Source: an uncultured Nitrospiraceae bacterium (GTDB taxonomy: Bacteria > Nitrospirota > Thermodesulfovibrionia > UBA6902). Taken from it: 64,000 nucleotides of DNA. Positions within the stretch are counted from its first letter, which is position 1. Each line of letters starts with the position of its first letter. A program made the position numbers and the translations under genes. Below, piece after piece: positions 2,311 through 63,490 of this stretch. The stretch covers positions 1,246 to 65,245 of the forward strand of contig CAYFXR010000062.1 in assembly GCA_964347155.1 (NCBI GenBank). The letters run 5' to 3'. The notes under the pieces were generated by a model. The model worked only from the letters and a program-made list of their open reading frames with translations. It was not told the DNA's origin and did not search any database.

Positions 2311-2455
2311 TTTATGAAGAAATGAACTTGAATACCCCGTTTTGTAAACTGGGATGAAAAGTTCTCCTTTCAGATCTCCCCCTTTGCTAAAGGGGGGGAA
2401 TACATAAGTATTAATCTTTTTTTGAAGCCCCGCCTTGTAGGCGGGGAGTTTCACT
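2311..2455 (+). repeat. Family A G/C-hairpin array repeat: the hairpins CCCCGTTTTGTAAAC(T)GGG, CCCCCTTTGCTAAAGGGGGGG and GCCCCGCCTTGTAGGCGGGGAG in a row.
   Basis: The same module, with the same order of hairpins, occurs at 28735-28945 and 50376-50587. Shorter versions are at 4519-4555, 19450-19546, 30067-30110 and 42822-42906 (reverse complement). Confidence 0.85.
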
Positions 2456-6167: not shown

Positions 6168-6866
6168 TTATTTTCTCAATTTTTTCCTTCCATAAATTGC
6201 AAAGCTTATAATACCACCACTTAAAAGGATAAACGTCCCTGGTTCGGGAACCTTTGCTGTAGAACGAGCTCCTACCCATATTGAATCTCTCCCTGCTATG
6301 CCGGGGCTATCACCATACCTACCAATATGTACTGCTGCAAAAATACCACCTGGATATTTCTCAGCAACGTTGAAATATTCAGGGTCCAGGTTAAGGAGAT
6401 TCATGTCGGGATCCATCATTTTAATAGTATCAGCGTATTTTTCTAATCTGATACTTCCGCTATCAGGAAATTTTAAATCCATGTGCCCATAGTATCCATC
6501 AGGCCTTTGTCCGTTCATTTTAAAATCTAAACCAAATGTACTTGTTGTATCAAATATTTCGTTCCCTGAAATCATGGCCTCATCTAAATTAAGATATACC
6601 TGGAGGATTTTATGGACATCTCCGATGAGATCAACTTCCATATCTACCATATCACTGTTATCGGCAAGATTAATTGTACCAAACAATGTTGGTGGAGCTG
6701 GTGTTCCACAAGTCGGACCGCCACTAAAGTTTTGACCATAAACAGTCCCAGATATAACACAATCTAAGTTAAATTGAAGCGCTTGAGATTGACCTTCCAT
6801 GATACTTAATAATAGGAAGAACACCGAAGACATGATGAAAAAACTCCCTGCTATTCTTTTTTTCAT
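6168..6866 (-). CDS. Secreted PEP-CTERM sorting-domain protein, a putative exosortase substrate.
   Basis: N-terminal signal peptide MKKRIAGSFFIMSSVFFLLLSI. The C-terminus ends VPEPGTFILLSGGIISFAIYGRKKLRK, which is the PEP motif, a TM helix and a basic tail. Confidence 0.75.
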   Translation of the reverse strand: MKKRIAGSFFIMSSVFFLLLSIMEGQSQALQFNLDCVISGTVYGQNFSGGPTCGTPAPPTLFGTINLADNSDMVDMEVDLIGDVHKILQVYLNLDEAMISGNEIFDTTSTFGLDFKMNGQRPDGYYGHMDLKFPDSGSIRLEKYADTIKMMDPDMNLLNLDPEYFNVAEKYPGGIFAAVHIGRYGDSPGIAGRDSIWVGARSTAKVPEPGTFILLSGGIISFAIYGRKKLRK

Positions 6867-7374: not shown

Positions 7375-7487
7375 ATGTAATAATAAATGTATCCCGTAAA
7401 ATATTTACTATTAACGGGATACATCGAGTTAAATAATTTTGTTACAATGTCTGCATTATTTAATCTGAAAATGTCATTCCCATGAAA
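7375..7487 (-). repeat. Family B repeat (reverse orientation) fused to the left arm of a family C foldback element (GAAAATGTCATTCCCATGAAA), ending at the IS insertion point.
   Basis: The arm matches the reverse complement of 32851-32955 (CCGAAAATGTCATTCCCGTGTAAACGGGAATCC...). Confidence 0.7.
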
Positions 7488-9203
7488 CAGGCTGTTGCAG
7501 AATGACAAATATATTTATCTTCTCATTCGCAATTGATTATTTTCATGTATATATAACAATAAATTCTTATATCGGATAATAATCTGTTCTTTAAAATATT
7601 GATAGGCTACAAATAAGGGCAAAATAGTACGCAACAAGATATACATCTTGTTGATATTATGAGCTATGCACATAAGATTGAACTCACCCTGAACCTGTGA
7701 AAGACCCCGCAAGCGAAATCGTCTGAATCCTAAATTCTCTTTTATGTTCCCAATCGCCGGTTCAACTGTTGTCATTCGAACCTTCAGTTTCTCCTTTGCC
7801 TCGTTGCTTTGCAGTTTCTCAAGCATTTTCTCAGCGTATATTTCACGATCATCCCTGTGTATCCGTCTCACTCCTGATTTGTTATTGGAGGGTAAACAAT
7901 TCTGTTTATAAGAACAACTGCTACAGTCCACCGCTTTGTACGTTCTACCTCTCCAGCCTGATCGCCTATATCTCCTTTCAAATTTCAGCTTCTTCCTTGC
8001 TGGACATTCATAGTAATCTCCCTCTCTGTTGTATACAAAATCAGACCTCTCAAATTTCTCCTTCTCTTTTAATAGTTCCTCAGGATTCTTAACTGTATTG
8101 GCTTTATTTGCATTTGACCTGTTCTCTGGATGTGGATCTGCCACTGTAGCTTTGATCTGATTCTCTTCTATATACTCAAGCTCCTCCAAACTGTGGTAGC
8201 CCGCATCAGTAGTATATTCACGCTCAGCGTCGGCTCCTAAATTATTTTCAACATTCTCATACTGCTTTGAAAATTGATTCTGATCATTCCGGTCTTGCAC
8301 CACATCATTGCCACAAATCAGTTGGCTCTCTGTATCTACGCTTACCTGTACATTGTATGCAGGAGCTTTCTGCCTCCCGTTTACTTTATCCATTATTATT
8401 GCATCCGGTTCAATTATGTTTATCTTATGCCCATTCCAATATTCAGGTTTGACAGTCTCCTTTCGTTTTTCCAGTTGCTCCTGACGTTCTATTAAGGTCT
8501 TTTCCTTTCTTTGTAATTGCCCTACTTTCTCCCTTACTTCCTCAATCTCCTGCGACGTTTCCTCTTCAGACAACTCACACATCTCCATGTACTCTGCTAT
8601 ATCTTTTCGTACCGCTGATAGATGCTTTGATAGTGAATCAGTATCTTTACTCTTCCTTGCACTCGCCGAAGCCTGTATCCTTGAGCCGTCCATTGCTATA
8701 CTCTTGAATTCTCCTAACCCCTTCTCCCTTGCCAGTCGGACTATCTGAATAAAATAATCCGATAACAGGTTCAAATGCCTCTTCCTGAACCGGCTAAGGC
8801 TGCTGTGATCAGGCTGCAAGTTTGCCGATACATAGATGAAGTGCAAGTCTCTCTGACATCGTTGCTCAAGTTTGCGAGTGCTCGTCTCTCCCTCACTGTA
8901 GGCGTTAAACCAAGTTGCCAGCATTATCTCAGGATCAAAGGCGTCATTGCCTTGGTCGCTATACTGGTTGTAAAGCTCCCGCAAGTCTAATTCCGATACT
9001 ACTTTTACTACAAAACGACACTTGGCATTCTGCTCTACAAAGTCATCAAGACTATAACCTATGAAATTCATTTGCTCTCGATTGTTTGTTATAAATCCCA
9101 TTATTTCGCTCCTCAAATTTTTTCTGACGTATAGTATATTCGATTGAGCTGCTTATGTTAAGATTATTTATTCATTTGTTAGTACAGAAACTGCAACAGC
9201 CTG
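7488..9203 (-). mobile_element. Intact insertion sequence, 1716 bp, IS5/IS1182-type. It has perfect 13-bp terminal inverted repeats CAGGCTGTTGCAG and is flanked by a 4-bp direct repeat GAAA (7484-7487 and 9204-9207).
   Basis: The terminal inverted repeats are read directly (7488-7500 and, as reverse complement, 9191-9203). The single transposase ORF 7515-9116 fills the element. The flanks reconstitute one uninterrupted family C repeat (compare the copy at 32851-32955). Confidence 0.85.
7515..9116 (-). CDS. DDE transposase, IS5/IS1182 family, with an InsH-like N-terminal domain.
   Basis: 533 aa. The N-terminus DPEIMLATWFNAYSEGETSTRKLEQRCQRDLHFIYVSANLQPDHSSLSRFRKR matches the transposase InsH N-domain. 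TTDAGYHS is the D(1)G(Y/F) motif, and the C-terminus NLMCIAHNINK is a typical IS5-superfamily tail. Confidence 0.9.
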   Translation of the reverse strand: MRSEIMGFITNNREQMNFIGYSLDDFVEQNAKCRFVVKVVSELDLRELYNQYSDQGNDAFDPEIMLATWFNAYSEGETSTRKLEQRCQRDLHFIYVSANLQPDHSSLSRFRKRHLNLLSDYFIQIVRLAREKGLGEFKSIAMDGSRIQASASARKSKDTDSLSKHLSAVRKDIAEYMEMCELSEEETSQEIEEVREKVGQLQRKEKTLIERQEQLEKRKETVKPEYWNGHKINIIEPDAIIMDKVNGRQKAPAYNVQVSVDTESQLICGNDVVQDRNDQNQFSKQYENVENNLGADAEREYTTDAGYHSLEELEYIEENQIKATVADPHPENRSNANKANTVKNPEELLKEKEKFERSDFVYNREGDYYECPARKKLKFERRYRRSGWRGRTYKAVDCSSCSYKQNCLPSNNKSGVRRIHRDDREIYAEKMLEKLQSNEAKEKLKVRMTTVEPAIGNIKENLGFRRFRLRGLSQVQGEFNLMCIAHNINKMYILLRTILPLFVAYQYFKEQIIIRYKNLLLYIHENNQLRMRR

Positions 9204-9432
9204 GAAAACGGGAGTCCATTTCCTTTATCTGGCCTCCCGCCATAGTGGGATATGTTACATAACGTGTTGTATGCTACTGTTGCCTCACGTGGTGTCCCAC
9301 TTTCGCGGGGACGGCGTCTGGAATCCCCGCTCAAGACGGATGGTACAGGGCAAGCTCTGAACCGGATGTACAGGGCAAGTCGGGGAATGACGGATAAAGG
9401 CATTTTAATTCTTTGTGGTGCCCCATAGGGAC
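9204..9432 (+). repeat. Right arm of the interrupted family C foldback element (GGGAGTCCATTTCCTTTATCTGG...GTGTCCCACTTTCGCGGGGACGGCGTCTGGAATCCCCG...CGGGGAATGAC), followed by a family D module (GGCATTTTAATTCTTTGTGGTGCCCCATAGGG).
   Basis: Homologous copies are at 44895-45000, 32851-32955 (reverse complement) and 31215-31345. The D module also occurs at 32815-32850 and 59219-59258. The ORF 9179-9532 lies wholly inside this repeat and is rejected. Confidence 0.75.
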
Positions 9433-9804
9433 ATGAATGTTTGGGTTCAGGATTAAACTGAGTTATAAAGTTTATCTTCCAGTGCAAATGCCAGGTTTTT
9501 AATTGTTTCTCTCTTTTTATTGCACTTTCCACATATGGTGTGACTTCATACTATACAAGCTTTGTAAGGTTATACCTTTCTGTAAATCCTTCTTCTAACT
9601 TAATTTTGACCTTTGGTCAAAGCCTCATCTTAAGCCGGTTTATAAATTTTTAAAAGAGGCACCAGAAAAATTTCTATTATCAAATAGTAACAGTGTGTGA
9701 CATGTAAAAATGAAAACGACCAGACATGTTCATCACAGTTAGTCATTTAGAGCCCTTGATTAAAAAACTCTGAAGAGTTATAGTATCAAAATTTTAAATA
9801 TACA

Positions 9805-19302: not shown

Positions 19303-19449
19303 TTATGTCTTTCGTAACATTGTGCTGTTGATTTATTTCCTGTCAAATCTAACACAAAGTATAGTACAAAAAATATTTTAAAACAAGTAGTACTCAAAAA
19401 AAGGTAAGCATATCTAAATTCGTGACAGGACAGATAAGACTGGAAATAA

Positions 19450-19546
19450 ATTCCCCTCTTTGGAAAAGAGGGGGTAGGGGAGATTTTATAATAAATACAG
19501 TTTCAATAACAAATCCCCCCTCGCCCCCTTTAATAAAGAGGGGATA
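19450..19546 (+). repeat. Family A hairpin-array repeat, short version (TTCCCCTCTTTGGAAAAGAGGGGGTAGG ... AAATCCCCCCTCGCCCCCTTTAATAAAGAGGGGAT).
   Basis: Same order and spacer (GATTTTATAAT...) as the copies at 28780-28880 and 50440-50530. Confidence 0.8.
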
Positions 19547-22729: not shown

Positions 22730-23078
<349 letters not shown>

Positions 23079-28707: not shown

Positions 28708-29085
28708 CAAATAATGCAGACATTGCTCAAAAATTTATGAAGAAATGAACTTGAATACCCCGTTTTGTAAACGGGGATGAAAAGTTCTCCTTATCAAATC
28801 TCCCCCTTTGGAAAAGGGGGAATAAGGAGGATTTTATAATTATAACATCGACAAATCCCCCCTCACCCCCCTTTGCTAAAGGGGGGGGAATACATAAGTA
28901 TTAATCTTTTTTTGAAGCCCCGCCTTGTAGGCGGGGAGGTTCATTTAACTCGATGAATTTATTATTAAATTATGCATATGAATTTGAATAAAAATATGCA
29001 TAAGTACATTGATTAAAAATGCATTTAAGGTATCGAAAAATAAATTTTTTCACAACATCTGCATTATTTTTAATGCATTTTTGGG
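28708..29085 (+). repeat. Composite repeat locus: a family B module, a full family A hairpin array (four G/C hairpins), then an AT-rich family F module (GGTATCGAAAAATAAATTTTTTCACAACATCTGCATTATTTTTAATGCATTTTTGGGG).
   Basis: Collinear with 50293-50587 (B then A). The F module recurs at 38095-38175 with a 26-nt insertion. Confidence 0.85.
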
Positions 29086-29151: not shown

Positions 29152-30153
29152 TCATGAGCTAAATGACTGCAAAAGGGCTTCTACCTCTTCCAATCTCGGT
29201 ATGCCCGCTCTCCCGCCTAATTTCCGGCATTTCAGCGCTGCAAATGCCGATGCAAAACGCACAACATCCTTTATATTCCATTTCTGCAGGATCCCATAAA
29301 TATAACCTCCATGAAATACATCACCTGCACCTGTTGTGTCAATAACGTCAACCTTAAAAGCCGGGGTCTGAAAGATTTCATTCCCGGAGATTGTAATGCT
29401 CCCTTTTTTACCAAGGGTGATTGTTGTTGCCCTTGTATTAAATTCCTTCATGTGCATAACGGATTTTTCTGGATCGAATGAATCTTTGTTATTCAACAAT
29501 TCTCTTGCAAATTCTTCTGAGCAGACCACATAGTTACATAGATGCGCTATTTCAATCATTCCTTCTCGTACCCGGCCGGCATCAAGCATCACAGGAATAT
29601 TTTTTTCTTGTGCCTTTTTTGCAGCATATATAGATACCTCCTCCATAAGTCCATCAATAAGGAGAAAGTCCGCATTGTCAAGAAAATCCTCAGGTAGTTC
29701 ATGTGGTTTTAAGGGTTCTGCAGAAGGTCTTTTCCAGAATATTGTCCTTTTGCTACTGCCTTTTTCAACGGCGATAAATGCGACCTGAGAGCTGGACTGA
29801 GGTCTTTTTAAGAGACCTTTGATGTTTACATTTTCTGATTCAAGAGATTCCTTGATTTTTATCCCAGCTTCATCATCACCTGCAATGCCGTAAAAACTGC
29901 AATGAATACCGAGCCTTGAAAGACTTACAAGCGCGGTTGCAACAGGACCGCCGCTTGCTGTTGTACATTCTATTACTTCTTTTTTTGTGTCTGGCACAGG
30001 AAAAGAATCTACAATAAACAGATTGTCAAAAGAACACTGTCCAATTCCTACAACTTTTTTCTGAAAATCCCCCCTTCCCCCCTTTGCTAAAGGGGGGTTA
30101 GGGGGGATTAGATTTTTCTTCTTTTTTTTGCCTGAGTCACCGCTGGTGTGCAT
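29152..30153 (-). CDS. PfkB-family carbohydrate/nucleoside kinase (ribokinase-like). The real N-terminus is probably near 30060, because the first 30 codons of the tracked ORF are a read-through of a family A repeat.
   Basis: Conserved GG dipeptide region and the C-terminal anion-hole motif DTTGAGDVFHGGYIYG. The N-terminal MHTSGDSGKKKKKNLIPPNPPLAKGGRGD is a translation of the repeat at 30067-30110. Confidence 0.8.
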   Translation of the reverse strand: MHTSGDSGKKKKKNLIPPNPPLAKGGRGDFQKKVVGIGQCSFDNLFIVDSFPVPDTKKEVIECTTASGGPVATALVSLSRLGIHCSFYGIAGDDEAGIKIKESLESENVNIKGLLKRPQSSSQVAFIAVEKGSSKRTIFWKRPSAEPLKPHELPEDFLDNADFLLIDGLMEEVSIYAAKKAQEKNIPVMLDAGRVREGMIEIAHLCNYVVCSEEFARELLNNKDSFDPEKSVMHMKEFNTRATTITLGKKGSITISGNEIFQTPAFKVDVIDTTGAGDVFHGGYIYGILQKWNIKDVVRFASAFAALKCRKLGGRAGIPRLEEVEALLQSFSS

Positions 30154-31421: not shown

Positions 31422-32792
31422 ATGAAAAAATTGTGGGGAGGAAGATTTAAAGAAAAAACCGAAAAGACTGTGGAGAGTTTTACATCTTCACTTTCTTTTG
31501 ATGTAAGGCTCTGGAAGCATGATATAGAAGGCAGTATTGCCCATGTAAAAATGCTCGGAAAGCAAAAGATTGTCACCCAAAAAGATGCTGAATTGATTAT
31601 CAAAGGTCTTAATGAGATAAAGGCAGAGATTCAGAACGGTACATTCAGGTTTCATGAAAGCCTTGAGGATGTGCATATGAATATAGAGCATGCCCTGATT
31701 AAGAAAATAGGAGATATGGGGGGAAAACTCCATACGGCAAGAAGCCGGAATGACCAGATAGCTCTTGATATGAGGCTTTTTCTCAGGGAAGGGATAACTG
31801 AAATCATTAAATTAATCAAGGGCTTTCAGATGGTAGTTGTCAGGATTGCTGAGAAACATGTTGATATTGTTATGCCTGGTTATACGCATCTTCAAAGGGC
31901 ACAACCGGTACTGCTTTCACACCATTTGCTTGCTTACTTTGAGATGTTTGAGCGTGACAGGGAGAGATTTGAAGATTGTCTGAAAAGGGTTAATGTTTTA
32001 CCTCTTGGTTCTGTTGCTCTGGCAGGGACATCACTGCCGATTGACAGGAAGTATGTTGCAAGATTGCTAAGATTTCCAAAAATTTCGGAAAACAGTATTG
32101 ATACAGTATCTGACAGGGATATTGTTATTGAATTTATTTCTGCATCATGTATGTTGATGATTCATCTTTCAAGACTTGCAGAAGAATTTATTATCTGGAA
32201 CAGTACAGAGTTTGGATTTATTGAGCTGCCGGATGCCTTTACAACAGGTTCAAGTATTATGCCACAGAAAAAAAATCCTGACGTCCTGGAATTGATACGA
32301 GGTAAGACAGGCAGGGTCTGTGGACACATGACGGCAATCTTAACCGTTATGAAGGGGCTTCCACTTGCTTATAACAGGGACATGCAGGAAGATAAGGAGC
32401 CTGTTTTTGATACAGTTGATACGGTAAAGTCGTGTCTTTATGTACTGGCGAAAATGATGCCCAAGGTTGTGTTCAGGAAAGAAAAAATGAAATGTGCAAC
32501 GGAAGCAGGATTTCTTAATGCTACGGACATTGCTGAGTATCTTGTTAAAAAGGGAATGCCTTTCAGGGAAGCTCATAATGTAACCGGTAAAATTGTCAAA
32601 TATTGTATTGGTAAAAACAAGACATTGGCAGACATCGATCTACATGAATTAAAGCGATATTCTAAACTGATTGATAAGGATGTATTTAATAATATTTCTA
32701 TAGAGGCTTCTGTTAGAGGAAAAAAGTCTTATGGCGGAACATCAAAGAAAACGGTACGTGATCGTATTAAGCGAATTAAAGATATGAAATAG
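31422..32792 (+). CDS. argH: Argininosuccinate lyase.
   Basis: 456 aa starting MKKLWGGRFKE, with the fumarate-lyase signature GSSIMPQKKNPD. Confidence 0.95.
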   Translation: MKKLWGGRFKEKTEKTVESFTSSLSFDVRLWKHDIEGSIAHVKMLGKQKIVTQKDAELIIKGLNEIKAEIQNGTFRFHESLEDVHMNIEHALIKKIGDMGGKLHTARSRNDQIALDMRLFLREGITEIIKLIKGFQMVVVRIAEKHVDIVMPGYTHLQRAQPVLLSHHLLAYFEMFERDRERFEDCLKRVNVLPLGSVALAGTSLPIDRKYVARLLRFPKISENSIDTVSDRDIVIEFISASCMLMIHLSRLAEEFIIWNSTEFGFIELPDAFTTGSSIMPQKKNPDVLELIRGKTGRVCGHMTAILTVMKGLPLAYNRDMQEDKEPVFDTVDTVKSCLYVLAKMMPKVVFRKEKMKCATEAGFLNATDIAEYLVKKGMPFREAHNVTGKIVKYCIGKNKTLADIDLHELKRYSKLIDKDVFNNISIEASVRGKKSYGGTSKKTVRDRIKRIKDMK

Positions 32793-32814
32793 TCAGATGG
32801 TAAAAATGTATTGT

Positions 32815-32955
32815 AGACCCTAAAGGACACCACTAAGAGTGAAAATGCCCTTGTCTGTTGTTCCCCTCGATCGGGGAATCCAGACGTCGTCCCCGCGAAA
32901 GCGGGGAGCCAGATAAAGGAAATGGATTCCCGTTTACACGGGAATGACATTTTCG
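32815..32955 (-). repeat. Family D module plus an uninterrupted family C foldback element (reverse orientation). This is the reference empty site for the IS insertion at 7488-9203.
   Basis: Its reverse complement reads CCGAAAATGTCATTCCCGTGTAAACGGGAATCCATTTCCTTTATCTGGCTCCCCGCTTTCGCGGGGACGACGTCTGGATTCCCCGATCGAGGG, collinear with 7463-7487 plus 9204-9330. Confidence 0.75.
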
Positions 32956-32962
32956 GATTACA

Positions 32963-33496
32963 TTGAGCGATTCTTATATACATAGGTGTGCAATGCAGGT
33001 TCAAAAATTCATAATGCGATTGGATATTGGAATTGTCTTACTGAGTGCTGCTTTCTGCCTACTTTTAATTTTTATTGGTGCTTGCGGCAGAAGAGGGGAT
33101 CCGGTTGCAATCGTGCCGCGTGAAGAAAAGAATATTGAAAAGGAATTAAATAAAAACAATAATAAGGACGAGGACATAAGCGAAACCCGAAAGAAAGGGA
33201 AAGAAACGCCTGAGATGAAGGTAAATTCGCCCGATTCTCCCACAGGACTGACCGCCATATATACTCAACAAAGTATTATCCTTACATGGGATGAGATAAC
33301 AGGACAGGAAATCAGATTTTACAGGATTTATCGCTCTGAAGGTAATGATTACATACATGTTGGAGATACCGTTATTCCTGCCTTCAGTGATAAGAATATA
33401 AAATCGAATATAAAGTATTATTATAAAATTAGCGCGGTTGGAGCGTCGGAGAGTCCTTCATCAAAAGAAATCGAAATTGTAACAACGATTAAGTGA
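32963..33496 (+). CDS. Putative lipoprotein with a fibronectin-III-like beta-sandwich domain. The probable start is the internal Met at about 33016.
   Basis: Lipobox LLIFIGAC, a low-complexity K/E-rich linker, then ...SPTGLTAIYTQQSIILTWDEITGQEIRFYRIYRSEGNDYIHVGD..., which is FN3-like. Confidence 0.5.
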   Translation: MSDSYIHRCAMQVQKFIMRLDIGIVLLSAAFCLLLIFIGACGRRGDPVAIVPREEKNIEKELNKNNNKDEDISETRKKGKETPEMKVNSPDSPTGLTAIYTQQSIILTWDEITGQEIRFYRIYRSEGNDYIHVGDTVIPAFSDKNIKSNIKYYYKISAVGASESPSSKEIEIVTTIK

Positions 33497-42775: not shown

Positions 42776-42906
42776 ACAGCAGGCTGAATGCCGAGAAAAC
42801 AGAATTGCGACACCTTTAGTAGAGGGGGGGGAGAGGGGGGGATTTGCTATAAAGACATTTATTATAAAATCTACCCTTACCCCTCTTTGCCAAAGAGGGG
42901 GATATA
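42776..42906. repeat. Family E module (42776-42812) followed by a family A hairpin array in reverse orientation (42822-42906).
   Basis: AGGCTGAATGCCGAGAAAACAGAATTGCGACAC, then GGGGGGGAGAGGGGGGGATTT...ATTATAAAATC...CCCCTCTTTGCCAAAGAGGGGG. The latter is the reverse complement of the GATTTTATAAT-containing family A core. Confidence 0.75.
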
Positions 42907-44840: not shown

Positions 44841-44894
44841 CCTGCCCCTTATTTGATATAGGGAATCTAGGAATTTTTTTGTATGTTTCCCTGC

Positions 44895-45000
44895 CACAGT
44901 GGGATACCCCACGTGGTGTCCCACTTTCGCAGGGACGGCGTCTGGATCATCCGGTCAAGCCCTGAACCAAATGGTTCAGGTCAAGCCGGATGATGACATG
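44895..45000 (+). repeat. Family C repeat copy (CACGTGGTGTCCCACTTTCGCAGGGACGGCGTCTGGATCATCCGG...CTGAACCAAATGGTTCAG...GATGATGAC).
   Basis: About 85% identical over the 45-nt core to 9296-9340. It carries an extra internal hairpin CTGAACC-AAAT-GGTTCAG. Confidence 0.75.
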
Positions 45001-50292: not shown

Positions 50293-50700
50293 CAAAATAA
50301 TGCAGAGTCGATTCGACCTCTAAAATTTATTTAACTCGATTTATCCCGTTAATAGTAAATATTTTACGGGATAAATTTATGAAGAAATGAACTTGACTAC
50401 CCCGTTTTGTAAACGGGGATGAAAAGTTCTCCTTATCAAATCTCCCCCTTTGGAAAAGGGGGATTAAGGGGGATTTTATAATTATAGCTTTTACAAATCC
50501 CCCCTTACCCCCCTTTACTAAAGGGGGGAAATAGAAGGACAGTTAATATTTTTTGAAGCCCCACTCTGTGGGCGGGTTAATTCACTAGTGAAATATGCAT
50601 ATGACAAAAAGACTGGATTGTCCGGTTAAACCGGACAATGGCATATGTATGATGCTGAATTGCGACACAGCCACAGGATGGGGGGCTGGAGAATGACAAA
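50293..50700 (+). repeat. Composite repeat locus: family B (including the hairpin TTATCCCGT-N16-ACGGGATAA), a full family A hairpin array, then the hairpin TTGTCCGG-TTAAA-CCGGACAA and E-like GAATTGCGACAC / GAATGACAAAAG modules.
   Basis: 50376-50587 is collinear with 28735-28945 and 2311-2455. GAGAATGACAAAAG resembles the IS left end CAGAATGACAAATAT at 7498-7512. Confidence 0.8.
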
Positions 50701-56297: not shown

Positions 56298-56373
56298 GGG
56301 CCCATAGCTCAGTTGGAAGAGCTACCGGCTCATAACCGGTTGGTCCCAGGTTCGAGCCCTGGTGGGCCCACCA
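56298..56373 (+). tRNA. tRNA with a CAT anticodon: tRNA-Met (or tRNA-Ile2 if lysidinylated), 76 nt with an encoded CCA.
   Basis: Cloverleaf read directly: acceptor GGGCCCA/TGGGCCC, D-arm GCTCAGTTGGAAGAGC, anticodon stem ACCGG/CCGGT with loop CTCATAA, T-arm CCAGGTTCGAGCCCTGG. Confidence 0.85.
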
Positions 56374-63159: not shown

Positions 63160-63250
63160 TATGGGGGGGGATTAATAAAGAAATATTTGTATAAATAAAA
63201 ATTCATAAACTGCCGAAAGGGCAAACTATCTGCAAAGGTAGGGCGCAAAG

Positions 63251-63490
63251 CCGCTGATCCTGAAATTAGCTATAAGCGTTTAGCTTTAAGCTTTAAGTGA
63301 AAAATCTTTTAGCTTATTGCTTAACGCTTATGGCTTAAAGCTTAAAGGGTGGCAGGGCTGCCGAAGGAGTTTTATAAAATTTAAAACCCATACCTTTTCA
63401 GGTATGGGTTTTTTAGCTATAAGTTTTCAGCGTTAAGCTTTAAGTTACTAAATATTTTTTAGCTTATCGCTGACAGCTAAAAAGGATATG
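63251..63490. repeat. AGCT-rich direct and inverted repeats (AGCTATAAGCGTTTAGCTTTAAGCTTTAAG / GCTTAAAGCTTAAAG ... AGCTATAAGTTTTCAGCGTTAAGCTTTAAG) flanking the terminator.
   Basis: Read directly. Long imperfect palindrome 63251-63350 and a second copy at 63415-63445. Confidence 0.4.
63384..63415 (+). terminator. Rho-independent terminator downstream of the NHL/FG-GAP gene.
   Basis: AAAACCCATACCTTTTCAGGTATGGGTTTTTT: a 10-bp stem CCCATACCTG/CAGGTATGGG followed by a T6 run. Confidence 0.65.

What the first reader, a model, noticed from the sequence alone, without database searches (positions are those of the whole stretch)
7463..9432. Intact IS5/IS1182-type element precisely inserted into a family C foldback repeat: terminal repeats, duplication and empty site all readable
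The 1716-bp element (7488-9203) has perfect 13-bp terminal inverted repeats CAGGCTGTTGCAG and is flanked by GAAA on both sides (7484-7487, 9204-9207). Joining the flanks (GAAAATGTCATTCCCATGAAA | CGGGAGTCCATTTCCTTTATCTGGC) reproduces the uninterrupted family C copy at 32851-32955 (GAAAATGTCATTCCCGTGTAAACGGGAATCCATTTCCTTTATCTGGC). This gives an internal empty-site control. It shows the IS is a recent insertion with a 4-bp target duplication, and that family C elements are hotspots for insertion. The 533-aa transposase (7515-9116) is intact with InsH-like N-domain and DGY motifs, so the IS is likely active. The adjacent ORF 9179-9532 is an artefact inside the repeat.
Basis: seen in the sequence. 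Interest (0 to 1): 0.55.

Follow-up and report, generated by a model that had tools for sequence, protein, structure and literature searches.

The report
Hairpin-loop-targeting IS1182 insertion sequence
This is an intact jumping gene of the IS1182 family, sitting exactly in the 4-base loop of a small DNA hairpin repeat; its relatives in many other bacteria use the same landing site, which is tidy but belongs to a known kind of behaviour.

Summary
A 1716-bp element (7488-9203) has perfect 13-bp terminal inverted repeats and is flanked by a GAAA duplication. Removing it restores a hairpin that exists uninterrupted at 32926-32945.

The transposase is IS1182 family (NCBIfam 361 bits, cut-off 270), not IS5 proper. 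It is most likely 528 aa, starting at ATG 9101, and the conserved D138/D299/E447 residues are intact.

The insertion site is not chance. I collected 46 distinct flanks of this IS, of relatives down to 53% protein identity, and of 132-170-bp MITE derivatives. The hosts include Nitrospirota, KSB1 and Deferribacteres genomes. All 46 show the same target, the centre of ATTCCCGC-N4-GCGGGAAT, used in both orientations. In contiguous copies the 4-nt loop is the duplication.

This hairpin matches the Neisseria dRS3/NTS "Ssn-related motif". A decayed GIY-YIG (Ssn-like) nuclease pseudogene lies next to the repeat at 9434-9724. The "artefact ORF" 9179-9532 begins inside it.

Hairpin and REP targeting by IS elements, including IS1182 members, is already known. 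I therefore rate this a new member of a known kind with unusually clean target specificity. Interest is moderate.

The parts
7488..9203 (-). Complete IS1182-family insertion sequence, 1716 bp, with the transposase on the minus strand
   Evidence: Terminal repeats. Identical element in public assemblies L001-L003.
7488..7500 (+). Terminal inverted repeat CAGGCTGTTGCAG at the transposase-distal end
   Evidence: The same 13-mer ends relatives down to 53% protein identity.
9191..9203 (-). Terminal inverted repeat CAGGCTGTTGCAG at the transposase-proximal end
7515..9101 (-). Transposase gene, 528 aa plus stop. The longest ORF extends to TTG 9116 (533 aa).
   Evidence: NCBIfam IS1182, 361 bits. Pfam DUF772, DDE_Tnp_1 and DDE_Tnp_1_6. 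The exact 528-aa product is called in three assemblies. D138, D299, E447 and K454 are conserved in at least 97% of 118 relatives.
9133..9161 (-). Promoter-like site TTAACA-17-TATACT inside the IS, upstream of the transposase start
   Evidence: This is a consensus match only, and the number of sites in the region is no higher than in shuffles.
7484..7487 (+). Target-site duplication GAAA, left copy. It is the loop of the target hairpin.
9204..9207 (+). Target-site duplication GAAA, right copy
7473..7483 (+). Left half of the split target hairpin, GTC-ATTCCCAT
9208..9219 (+). Right half of the split target hairpin, ACGGGAGT-CCAT
9208..9440 (+). Remainder of the family C mosaic repeat. It holds two further NTS-like hairpins, each with an extra block in its loop region (about 9241-9300 and 9331-9379).
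   Evidence: Alignment to 32780-32990, repeat pairs I3, I9 and D14, and the sequence itself.
32810..32955 (-). Uninterrupted family C copy, the empty-site control. Its hairpin ATTCCCGT-TTAC-ACGGGAAT lies at 32926-32945.
   Evidence: It folds at -10.4 kcal/mol, z -5.6. 32922-32949(-) is the only match in the window to the published Ssn-related motif.
9434..9724 (-). Decayed single-domain GIY-YIG (Ssn-like) nuclease pseudogene with six in-frame stops, directly abutting the family C repeat
   Evidence: Translation. Pfam GIY-YIG E 0.0027, below threshold. 693 hits, all those listed being PF01541 proteins of about 64-126 aa, with up to 81% identity and E 5e-24. Two stops were replaced by Y in the query.

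Best explanation
The element at 7488-9203 is an intact, probably active IS1182-family insertion sequence in an uncultured marine-sediment Nitrospirota bacterium.

Its DDE transposase presumably binds the 13-bp terminal repeats (inferred). It joins the element into the centre of a short palindromic hairpin repeat of the type (GTC)ATTCCCGC-NNNN-GCGGGAAT(CCAG). This is the dRS3/NTS "Ssn-related motif".

The two strand transfers are staggered by 4 bp at the stem-loop boundaries. Gap repair therefore duplicates exactly the 4-nt loop, here GAAA.

Target choice is a property of the whole clade and rests on the symmetric arms. It does not depend on the loop sequence or on the asymmetric flanks, because both orientations occur and loops vary.

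**Shown:** ends, duplication, empty site, family assignment, conserved catalytic residues, the clade-wide target and multiple flanks.

**Inferred:** current activity, that the transposase itself reads the target, and whether it reads a duplex palindrome or an extruded hairpin.
For: - **Ends and duplication:**
- **Empty site:**
- **Family:**
- **Catalytic residues:** D138 (AMDGS), D299 (TTDAGY), E447 and K454 are invariant across relatives.
- **Target, counted:** 46 distinct 24-nt flanks have at most 2 mismatches to GCGGGAAT at flank positions 5-12. Chance 17-mer hits in unrelated genomes centre on 6 mismatches, giving a bimodal distribution.
- **Direct duplications equal to the loop in contiguous copies:**
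  - GAAG (L059)
  - CTCC (L086)
  - GCAG (L055)
  - TTTC (L098)
  - CTTC (L137/L004, L143)
  - CAAG (L117)
  - GAAA (L010)
  - TTTC/GAAA (window)
- **Orientation:** both GAC-side and CCAG-side arms are found next to the same IS end.
- **Match to the published motif:** reconstructed targets match the 28-nt NTS consensus with 1-3 mismatches in L055, L059, L086, L010 and L137 (consensus from PMC11893778).
- **Rarity of the target in the window:** only 2-3 such hairpins exist in 64 kb, among 54 8+4+8 palindromes, and the single IS sits in one.
- **Multicopy:** two further flanks at the transposase-distal end and one further 11-nt flank at the other end occur for 100%-identical copies.
Against: - The occupied hairpin in the window is degenerate. 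Its arms ATTCCCAT and ACGGGAGT have two non-pairing positions. It folds at only -3.5 kcal/mol, no better than shuffles, and has 6 of 28 mismatches to NTS.
- Several short metagenome contigs have non-matching flank pairs: L001, L005, L008, L011, L013, L139 and L145. I attribute these to assembly chimeras between copies, but I cannot prove it.
- In contiguous copies the duplication is not always a perfect 4-bp repeat. L095 has GGAG/GAAG and L146 has GGAA/GAAT.
- A few elements with the same ends lie in other contexts: L117 has a different stem, L082 has no direct duplication, and L036/L051 show no hairpin half.
- No experiment shows transposition.
- The genome of the host is not available, so copy number and per-copy targets could not be counted.
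Confidence: 0.85

Rival explanations
1. The transposase recognises only structure, as reported for IS1272. It would insert into any stem-loop or cruciform, and the apparent sequence consensus merely reflects which hairpin is most abundant in the host genomes.
For: IS1272 (IS1182 family) targets hairpins with no primary-sequence conservation (PMC4923244 and PMC5678879). Some targets here have altered but still complementary arms: ATACCCGC/GCGGGTAT, ATTCCTGC/GCAGGAAT and TCCCGA/TCGGGA.
Against: 46 flanks from several phyla keep GCGGGAAT with at most 2 mismatches. The window contains 54 palindromes with an 8-bp stem and 4-nt loop, including several copies of CCCCCTTT-GCTA-AAGGGGGG, yet the IS sits in the NTS-like one. 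The occupied site in the window is a poor hairpin but keeps most of the arm sequence. Unlike IS1272, the target is not deleted and a duplication is made.
Confidence: 0.08
2. The insertion into the repeat is coincidental. The IS has no target preference and simply landed in an intergenic repeat where it is tolerated.
For: Only one copy is present in the window. Intergenic repeat mosaics are permissive sites.
Against: The position is at the dyad centre to the base. The same position is used by relatives and MITEs in unrelated assemblies. The chance of hitting the centre of one of about 3 such sites in 64 kb is about 5e-5.
Confidence: 0.02
3. The hairpin halves belong to the mobile element, as longer terminal repeats, or are created by it. 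In that case family C copies without the IS would be excision scars or solo ends rather than targets.
For: The flanks of the IS are inverted repeats of each other, as extended terminal repeats would be. One MITE (L082) is bracketed by 16-nt inverted flanks with no direct duplication.
Against: The same IS end is found next to either side of the asymmetric hairpin, GAC side or CCAG side. Loop duplications differ from site to site and are direct repeats. The uninterrupted hairpin has exactly the length expected for an unused site. Such hairpins are abundant in genomes such as Neisseria independently of this IS (PMC11893778).
Confidence: 0.03
4. The IS copies were spread among hairpin repeats by homologous recombination or gene conversion between repeats, or the shared flanks are short-read assembly artefacts, rather than by targeted transposition.
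For: Chimeric flank pairs are common in the short contigs. dRS3-type repeats are proposed recombination substrates (PMC1797815).
Against: Long contigs from MAGs show matched direct duplications that differ between sites (L055, L059, L086, L098, L117, L137, L143). This is the signature of separate transposition events. Outer flanks are unrelated.
Confidence: 0.02

Closest known systems
IS1272 and other IS1182-family elements (ISfinder family IS1182)
   Same: Same transposase family. They have terminal inverted repeats and a DDE enzyme with an N-terminal DUF772 domain. Members of the family are reported to target palindromic or hairpin sequences (Siguier et al. 2015 as cited in PMC4923244 and PMC5678879).
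   Different: IS1272 shows no primary-sequence specificity. It cuts in the stem, deletes part or all of the stem-loop and makes no duplication. This clade uses one conserved hairpin sequence, inserts at the loop and duplicates the 4-nt loop, which is pathway c of the model in PMC5678879. Named IS1182-like elements in the plasmid collection are under 30% identical.
IS1397 / ISKpn1 (IS3 family) and other REP-specific IS elements (ISPpu9, ISPpu10, ISPa11, ISRm19, ISRm22)
   Same: They insert at one fixed position of a repetitive extragenic palindrome. This is the "type 1 association" of Tobes and Pareja 2006 (PMC1525189). From my own knowledge, IS1397 inserts in the loop of the palindromic unit with a short duplication.
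   Different: They belong to different transposase families: IS3, IS110, IS4, IS256 and IS5 are listed in that paper, and IS1182 is not. They use different host repeats. The IS110-type members use a different chemistry and lack classical terminal repeats and duplications.
Neisseria dRS3 / NTS hairpins and Ssn-related motifs, with the GIY-YIG single-strand nuclease SsnA
   Same: The target hairpin fits dRS3 (ATTCCC-N8-GGGAAT). In other loci it fits the 28-nt NTS consensus with 1-3 mismatches. The empty-site copy matches the published degenerate SRM pattern. A small GIY-YIG gene remnant lies beside the repeat. The repeats sit in intergenic mosaics like NIMEs (PMC1797815).
   Different: These are the target, not the IS. 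The known dRS3-specific integrating element is a filamentous prophage that uses an IS110-like recombinase, not an IS1182 transposase (PMC1797815, PMC11893778). The nearest intact relatives of the pseudogene are flanked by hairpins of another sequence, GTCATTCTGAA..TTCAGAATCTCAG, which does not match the SRM pattern.

Membership tests
IS1182 family insertion sequence | Transposase matches the family model above its curated threshold | tested here: met
   NF033551: 361.3 bits against a cut-off of 270, E 8e-108, covering model positions 3-486 of 488.
IS1182 family insertion sequence | Domain layout with an N-terminal DUF772 (InsH-type) domain and a C-terminal DDE_Tnp_1_6 domain | tested here: met
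   PF05598 at residues 56-123 and PF13751 at 371-492 of the 533-aa ORF, both above gathering scores.
IS1182 family insertion sequence | DDE catalytic triad intact | tested here: met
   D138, D299 and E447 (with K454) are invariant in at least 97% of 118 aligned relatives and present in the window copy. Their catalytic role is inferred from position, not assayed.
IS1182 family insertion sequence | Terminal inverted repeats bounding a single transposase gene, with a length of 1.3-2 kb | tested here: met
   13-bp perfect repeats, 1716 bp, one gene. The family size range is from my own knowledge of ISfinder.
IS5 family (sensu stricto) | Transposase matches an IS5 family model above threshold | tested here: not met
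   NF033581: 53.8 bits against a cut-off of 140.
REP/hairpin-specific IS ("type 1 association" of Tobes and Pareja 2006) | All copies inserted at the same position of the palindromic repeat, so that a target consensus can be written | tested here: met
   46 distinct flanks with GCGGGAAT at positions 5-12, and none of the transposase-adjacent ends deviates by more than 2 mismatches. The test was made across the clade. It was not made within the host genome, which is unavailable.
IS1272-type stem-loop-replacing transposition | Target stem-loop deleted and no target-site duplication | tested here: not met
   Both arms are retained and the 4-bp loop is duplicated.
dRS3 / NTS / Ssn-related motif (for the target hairpin) | Sequence fits ATTCCC-N8-GGGAAT (dRS3) and the degenerate SRM pattern | tested here: met
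   32926-32945 matches dRS3 at 20 of 20 positions. 32922-32949(-) is the only SRM match in the window, against a shuffle mean of 0.1. The reconstructed occupied site has 1 dRS3 mismatch and fails the SRM pattern.
dRS3 / NTS / Ssn-related motif (for the target hairpin) | Bound and cut as single-stranded DNA by a cognate Ssn nuclease, with spatial association with an ssn gene | tested here: inconclusive
   A GIY-YIG pseudogene abuts the repeat. However, it is dead, and its intact relatives carry different flanking hairpins. Cleavage is not testable with these tools.
Ssn nuclease family (cd10448) for the pseudogene at 9434-9724 | Single-domain GIY-YIG protein of about 95 aa assigned to cd10448 | not tested
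   Homologs are PF01541 proteins of about 64-126 aa, mostly 87-113 aa. No CDD model was available, so cd10448 membership was not checked.

The most novel reading that the evidence does not exclude
The IS1182 clade and the Ssn/hairpin system are functionally coupled rather than merely co-located. The transposase would read the same extruded hairpin that Ssn nucleases read. The hairpins would act as dedicated landing pads across phyla. The clade's MITEs, one of which carries the two hairpins that normally flank a GIY-YIG gene, would help disperse such hairpins. Alternatively, Ssn cleavage would restrain the IS.
Probability: 0.12. Interest if true: 0.65.

Novelty: new member of a known kind. Interest (0 to 1): 0.4.

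Why it matters
For this window, it settles the annotation. There is one intact IS1182-family element, its exact ends, a 4-bp duplication, a dead GIY-YIG gene and no real gene at 9179-9532.

More generally, it gives a clean natural-history data set for how one branch of a poorly studied IS family chooses its target. That target is the dyad centre of a conserved 8+4+8 hairpin, with the loop duplicated. IS1272, in contrast, deletes the hairpin.

The target is the same hairpin family recently shown to be the substrate of Ssn single-strand nucleases. That makes a simple testable question: does the transposase recognise the duplex palindrome or the extruded hairpin, and do the two systems interact?

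Such safe-site targeting also explains why these elements break short-read assemblies at hairpin repeats.

Tried and rejected
- **Genome collection, protein scan.** A scan for the transposase found no relative. The host genome and close relatives are therefore not among the species representatives, and copies per genome could not be counted.
- **Genome collection, 17-mer end scan.** This scan returned mostly chance matches. I used these as a negative control.
- **Metagenome scan.** I chose a 21-mer that was too specific, and it gave only 6 loci.
- **Cluster look-up.** It gave no organism names. Taxonomy came from SecD relatives instead.
- **Pseudogene searches.** NCBIfam and the solved-structure sequence search found nothing. 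Pfam was below threshold. Only the large protein search was decisive. No intact GIY-YIG gene is present in the window.
- **Plasmid collection.** It holds only relatives under 30% identical, so no ISfinder name could be transferred.
- **Rfam.** It has no family for the repeats.
- **Readings considered and rejected.** Extended terminal repeats including the hairpin arms, chance insertion, and recombinational spread. See the rival explanations.
- **Not pursued.** The odd contexts of L082, L036/L051 and L064.
Full report
**1. What is in the sequence**

The 13-mer CAGGCTGTTGCAG occurs exactly twice in the window, at 7488-7500 on the plus strand and at 9191-9203 on the minus strand. None of 100 shuffles produced any match. 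The two ends match for 13 bases and then diverge.

Immediately outside the ends are GAAA at 7484-7487 and GAAA at 9204-9207. Deleting 7488-9207 leaves GAAAATGTCATTCCCATGAAAACGGGAGTCCATTTCCTTTATCTGGC. This has the same length as the reverse complement of 32909-32955 and differs from it at 3 of 47 positions.

The only slip is one A (base 9208) dropped in the written join.

The similarity between the two repeat copies runs on to about 32810. Relative to the 32.8-kb copy, the copy next to the IS has two additional blocks, roughly 9241-9300 and 9331-9379.

**2. What the element is**

The single long ORF (7515-9116, minus strand) matches the NCBIfam IS1182 transposase model over its whole length. 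It scores 361 bits against a cut-off of 270. The IS5 model scores 54 bits against a cut-off of 140. Pfam finds DUF772, DDE_Tnp_1 and DDE_Tnp_1_6.

The start is more likely ATG 9101 than TTG 9116, for two reasons:
- A GAGGAG lies seven bases upstream of the ATG.
- The exact 528-aa product is the gene called in three public assemblies.

In an alignment of 118 relatives, D138 (AMDGS), D299 (TTDAGY), E447 and K454 are invariant and present in this copy. Four cysteines, C366, C393, C396 and C402, are also invariant. A promoter-like TTAACA-17-TATACT sits between the end of the element and the start codon, but this is a consensus match only.

The element is an intact IS1182-family insertion sequence of 1716 bp.

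**3. The host**

The window is part of a 65.5-kb contig of an NCBI sediment metagenome assembly. The three assemblies that carry the identical transposase belong to a study of deep sediments of the Gulfs of Kathiawar (PMC8319310).

The neighbouring SecD is 82% identical to proteins of "Nitrospiraceae bacterium" MAGs and 73-74% identical to Thermodesulfovibrionia proteins. The host is therefore an uncultured member of the Nitrospirota.

**4. Other copies of the same IS**

The three assemblies hold the 100%-identical transposase on contigs that end a few bases outside the element. This is typical of a repeat that breaks short-read assemblies.

Their flanks are not all those of the window:
- At the transposase-distal end I find TTTCATGGGAATGAC (the window), TTTCGCGGGAATGACTTACTG and GAAAGCGGGAATCCAGTGT.
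- At the other end I find CCCGTTTTC (the window) and TTCCTGCATTC.

There are therefore at least three insertion sites in these samples. The two additional flanks at the transposase-distal end are canonical hairpin halves. The additional flank at the other end is only 11 nt long. I read contigs with mismatched flank pairs, such as L001, as assembly chimeras between copies.

**5. The target is the same across the whole clade**

I fetched contigs encoding relatives of 83-69% identity (P0004, P0006, P0008) and of 53% identity (P0076 from a KSB1 genome, and P0054). I also scanned the genome and metagenome collections for the conserved end.

All true ends carry the same 13-bp repeat, or CAGACTGTTGCAG, and abut a hairpin half. 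In total, 46 distinct 24-nt flanks have GCGGGAAT, with at most two mismatches, at positions 5-12 outside the end. These are followed either by GAC or by CCAG. Chance hits of the 17-mer in unrelated genomes show the random expectation of about six mismatches.

Complete copies in contiguous sequence give matched direct duplications that differ from site to site:

| Locus | Left flank \| right flank | Duplication |
|---|---|---|
| L059 | GTCATTCCCGC-GAAG \| GAAG-GCGGGAATTGAG | GAAG |
| L086 | CTGGATTCCCGC-CTCC \| CTCC-GCGGGAATGAC | CTCC |
| L055 | flanks as | GCAG |
| L098 | flanks as | TTTC |
| L137, L143 | flanks as | CTTC |
| L117 | flanks as | CAAG |
| L010 | flanks as | GAAA |

Two contiguous copies have imperfect duplications: L095 has GGAG/GAAG and L146 has GGAA/GAAT.

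The target is thus an 8-bp stem with a 4-nt loop. The element is joined at the two stem-loop boundaries and the loop is duplicated. Both orientations relative to the asymmetric outer bases occur, so recognition rests on the symmetric arms.

Several of these insertions are MITEs, not full elements. They are 132-170 bp long, carry the same ends, and come from Deferribacteres and Thermodesulfovibrionia MAGs.

In the window, only two or three hairpins of this type exist among 54 palindromes with an 8-bp stem and a 4-nt loop. The single IS sits at the centre of one.

**6. What the hairpin is**

The uninterrupted copy at 32926-32945, ATTCCCGT-TTAC-ACGGGAAT, fits the Neisseria dRS3 definition ATTCCC-N8-GGGAAT at 20 of 20 positions (definition in PMC1797815). 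It folds as single-stranded DNA at -10.4 kcal/mol with z -5.6.

Chenal and colleagues (PMC11893778) extended dRS3 to the 28-nt NTS, CGTCATTCCCGCGMAVGCGGGAATCYRG, and to a degenerate "Ssn-related motif". They showed that small GIY-YIG nucleases (Ssn) bind this hairpin as single-stranded DNA and cut next to it.

Match to these definitions:
- Reconstructed targets from other loci match the NTS consensus with 1-3 mismatches of 28.
- The window's own copies are more diverged, with 5-6 mismatches.
- The empty-site hairpin is the only match in the window to the published degenerate motif, against 0.1 expected from shuffles.

The occupied hairpin has two non-pairing positions and folds no better than shuffles. 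Either it was already a weak copy or it decayed after being split.

**7. The neighbouring "artefact ORF"**

Its first ~33 codons, however, lie in the frame of a longer decayed reading frame at 9434-9724 on the minus strand:

MSGRFHFYMSHTVTI***KFFWCLF*KFINRLKMRL*PKVKIKLEEGFTERYNLTKLV*YEVTPYVESAIKREKQLKTWHLHWKINFITQFNPEPKHS

This frame has six stops and no frameshift. Pfam GIY-YIG is below threshold at E 0.0027. A search of the large protein collection with the C-terminal 72 residues, with two stops replaced by Y, gave 693 hits. All those listed are PF01541 proteins of about 64-126 aa, with up to 81% identity and E 5e-24.

A dead single-domain GIY-YIG nuclease gene therefore abuts the hairpin repeat. 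This recalls the NTS-ssn-NTS arrangement.

I could not test membership of the Ssn family (cd10448). The nearest intact relatives are flanked by hairpins of a different sequence, GTCATTCTGAA-TTTA-TTCAGAATCTCAG upstream and GATGCTGAAAC..GTTCAGCATGACA downstream. These do not match the published motif. I therefore treat the link as suggestive only.

**8. How it most likely works**

*Shown:* a DDE-type IS with 13-bp ends, a 4-bp direct duplication equal to the loop of a conserved palindrome, use of both orientations, an unused site in the same contig, and recurrence of the same target in several phyla.

*Inferred:*
- The transposase or its synaptic complex binds the two GCGGGAAT half-sites symmetrically.
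- It transfers the 3' ends 4 bp apart across the dyad.
- Repair then duplicates the loop.

This corresponds to pathway c of the scheme drawn for IS1272 in PMC5678879. Whether the duplex palindrome or an extruded cruciform or single-strand hairpin is recognised cannot be decided from sequence.

Compensatory arm variants among used targets (ATACCCGC/GCGGGTAT, ATTCCTGC/GCAGGAAT) are compatible with either reading. The strong sequence consensus argues against a purely structural reading. So does the fact that the other hairpin families in the window were not used.

**9. Comparison with what is known**

REP-specific insertion is documented for members of the IS3, IS110, IS4, IS256 and IS5 families (PMC1525189).

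For the IS1182 family, the review by Siguier and colleagues is cited as stating that some members target palindromes. IS1272 inserts into hairpins of any sequence while deleting them and making no duplication (PMC4923244 and PMC5678879).

In Neisseria, the known dRS3-specific integrating element is a filamentous prophage with an IS110-like recombinase (PMC1797815). The Ssn paper does not mention IS1182 elements. Two text searches for IS1182 together with REP, or for Ssn together with insertion sequences, found nothing relevant.

Named IS1182-like elements in the plasmid collection are under 30% identical. I had no access to ISfinder, so I cannot exclude that a member of this clade and its target are already registered there.

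**10. Verdict**

What the tools add:
- the precise family
- the likely start codon
- the identity of the target as a dRS3/NTS-type hairpin whose loop is the duplication
- the demonstration that this target is a clade-wide property shared by MITE derivatives
- the GIY-YIG pseudogene next door

This is a new, unnamed member of a known kind of element with a known kind of behaviour. It is of moderate interest, mainly as a clean case for studying target choice in the IS1182 family and its possible relation to the Ssn hairpin system.

Noticed in passing
window 9434-9724 (-): Decayed single-domain GIY-YIG nuclease gene of about 97 aa. It has six in-frame stop codons, three of them consecutive, and no frameshift. 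It directly abuts the family C repeat.
   Followed up: yes
window 9241-9300 and 9331-9379; compare 32853-32910 and 44880-45000: The family C copy beside the IS has extra blocks sitting in the loop regions of its two other NTS-like hairpins (CTCCCGC..GCGGGGAC and AATCCCCGC..GGGGAAT). The partial relative at 44.9 kb shows the same hairpin-within-hairpin nesting, including TCAAG|CCCTGAACCAAATGGTTCAGG|TCAAG. This looks like repeated small insertions into hairpin loops.
   Followed up: partly
L055, L059, L086 (149 bp), L095 (170 bp), L098 (132 bp), L064 (197 bp): Non-autonomous MITE derivatives carry the same 13-bp ends as the IS. Those in L055, L059, L086, L095 and L098 lie in the same hairpin loop with 4-bp duplications, imperfect in L095. 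L064 sits in a weaker context. The hosts are Deferribacteres and Thermodesulfovibrionia MAGs. The interior of the L098 MITE consists of the two hairpins that flank intact GIY-YIG homologues in L148-L159.
   Followed up: partly
L082, about 1797-1964: A MITE of about 168 bp with the same ends is bracketed by 16-nt inverted flanks, GCCCCTCCCCGTCAGA and TCTGACGGGGAGGGGC, with no direct duplication. This does not fit the 4-bp loop rule.
   Followed up: no
L001, L005, L008, L011, L013, L139, L145: Short metagenome contigs pair flanks from different insertion sites. Examples are both flanks from the CCAG side, or TTTC on one side and GAAA on the other. These are most simply assembly chimeras across a multicopy IS, though inversions between copies are not excluded.
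   Followed up: partly
L004 771-2195 and 2543-4129: Two IS1182-type transposase genes, of 474 and 528 aa, lie side by side among NTS-type hairpins on one 4.9-kb contig.
   Followed up: no
window 2311-2453, 19448-19546, 28731-28943, 30065-30123, 42850-42906, 50373-50584: Other dispersed intergenic repeat families are built from G/C-run hairpins such as CCCCCTTTGCTAAAGGGGGG. They are combined in mosaics reminiscent of NIME/BIME arrays. None carries an IS in this window.
   Followed up: no
window 7383-7440, 702-745, 50323-50380: A further repeat family, ATCCCGTAAAATATTTACTATTAACGGGAT, lies just left of the IS insertion site and at two other places. The 2.9-kb gap between the PEP-CTERM protein gene (6168-6866) and yajC (9805-) is therefore a patchwork of at least three repeat families, the IS and the pseudogene.
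   Followed up: no
window 22730-23078, 56298-56373, 63210-63365: tmRNA with tag ANTELALAA, tRNA-Met, and a c-di-GMP-I riboswitch.
   Followed up: no
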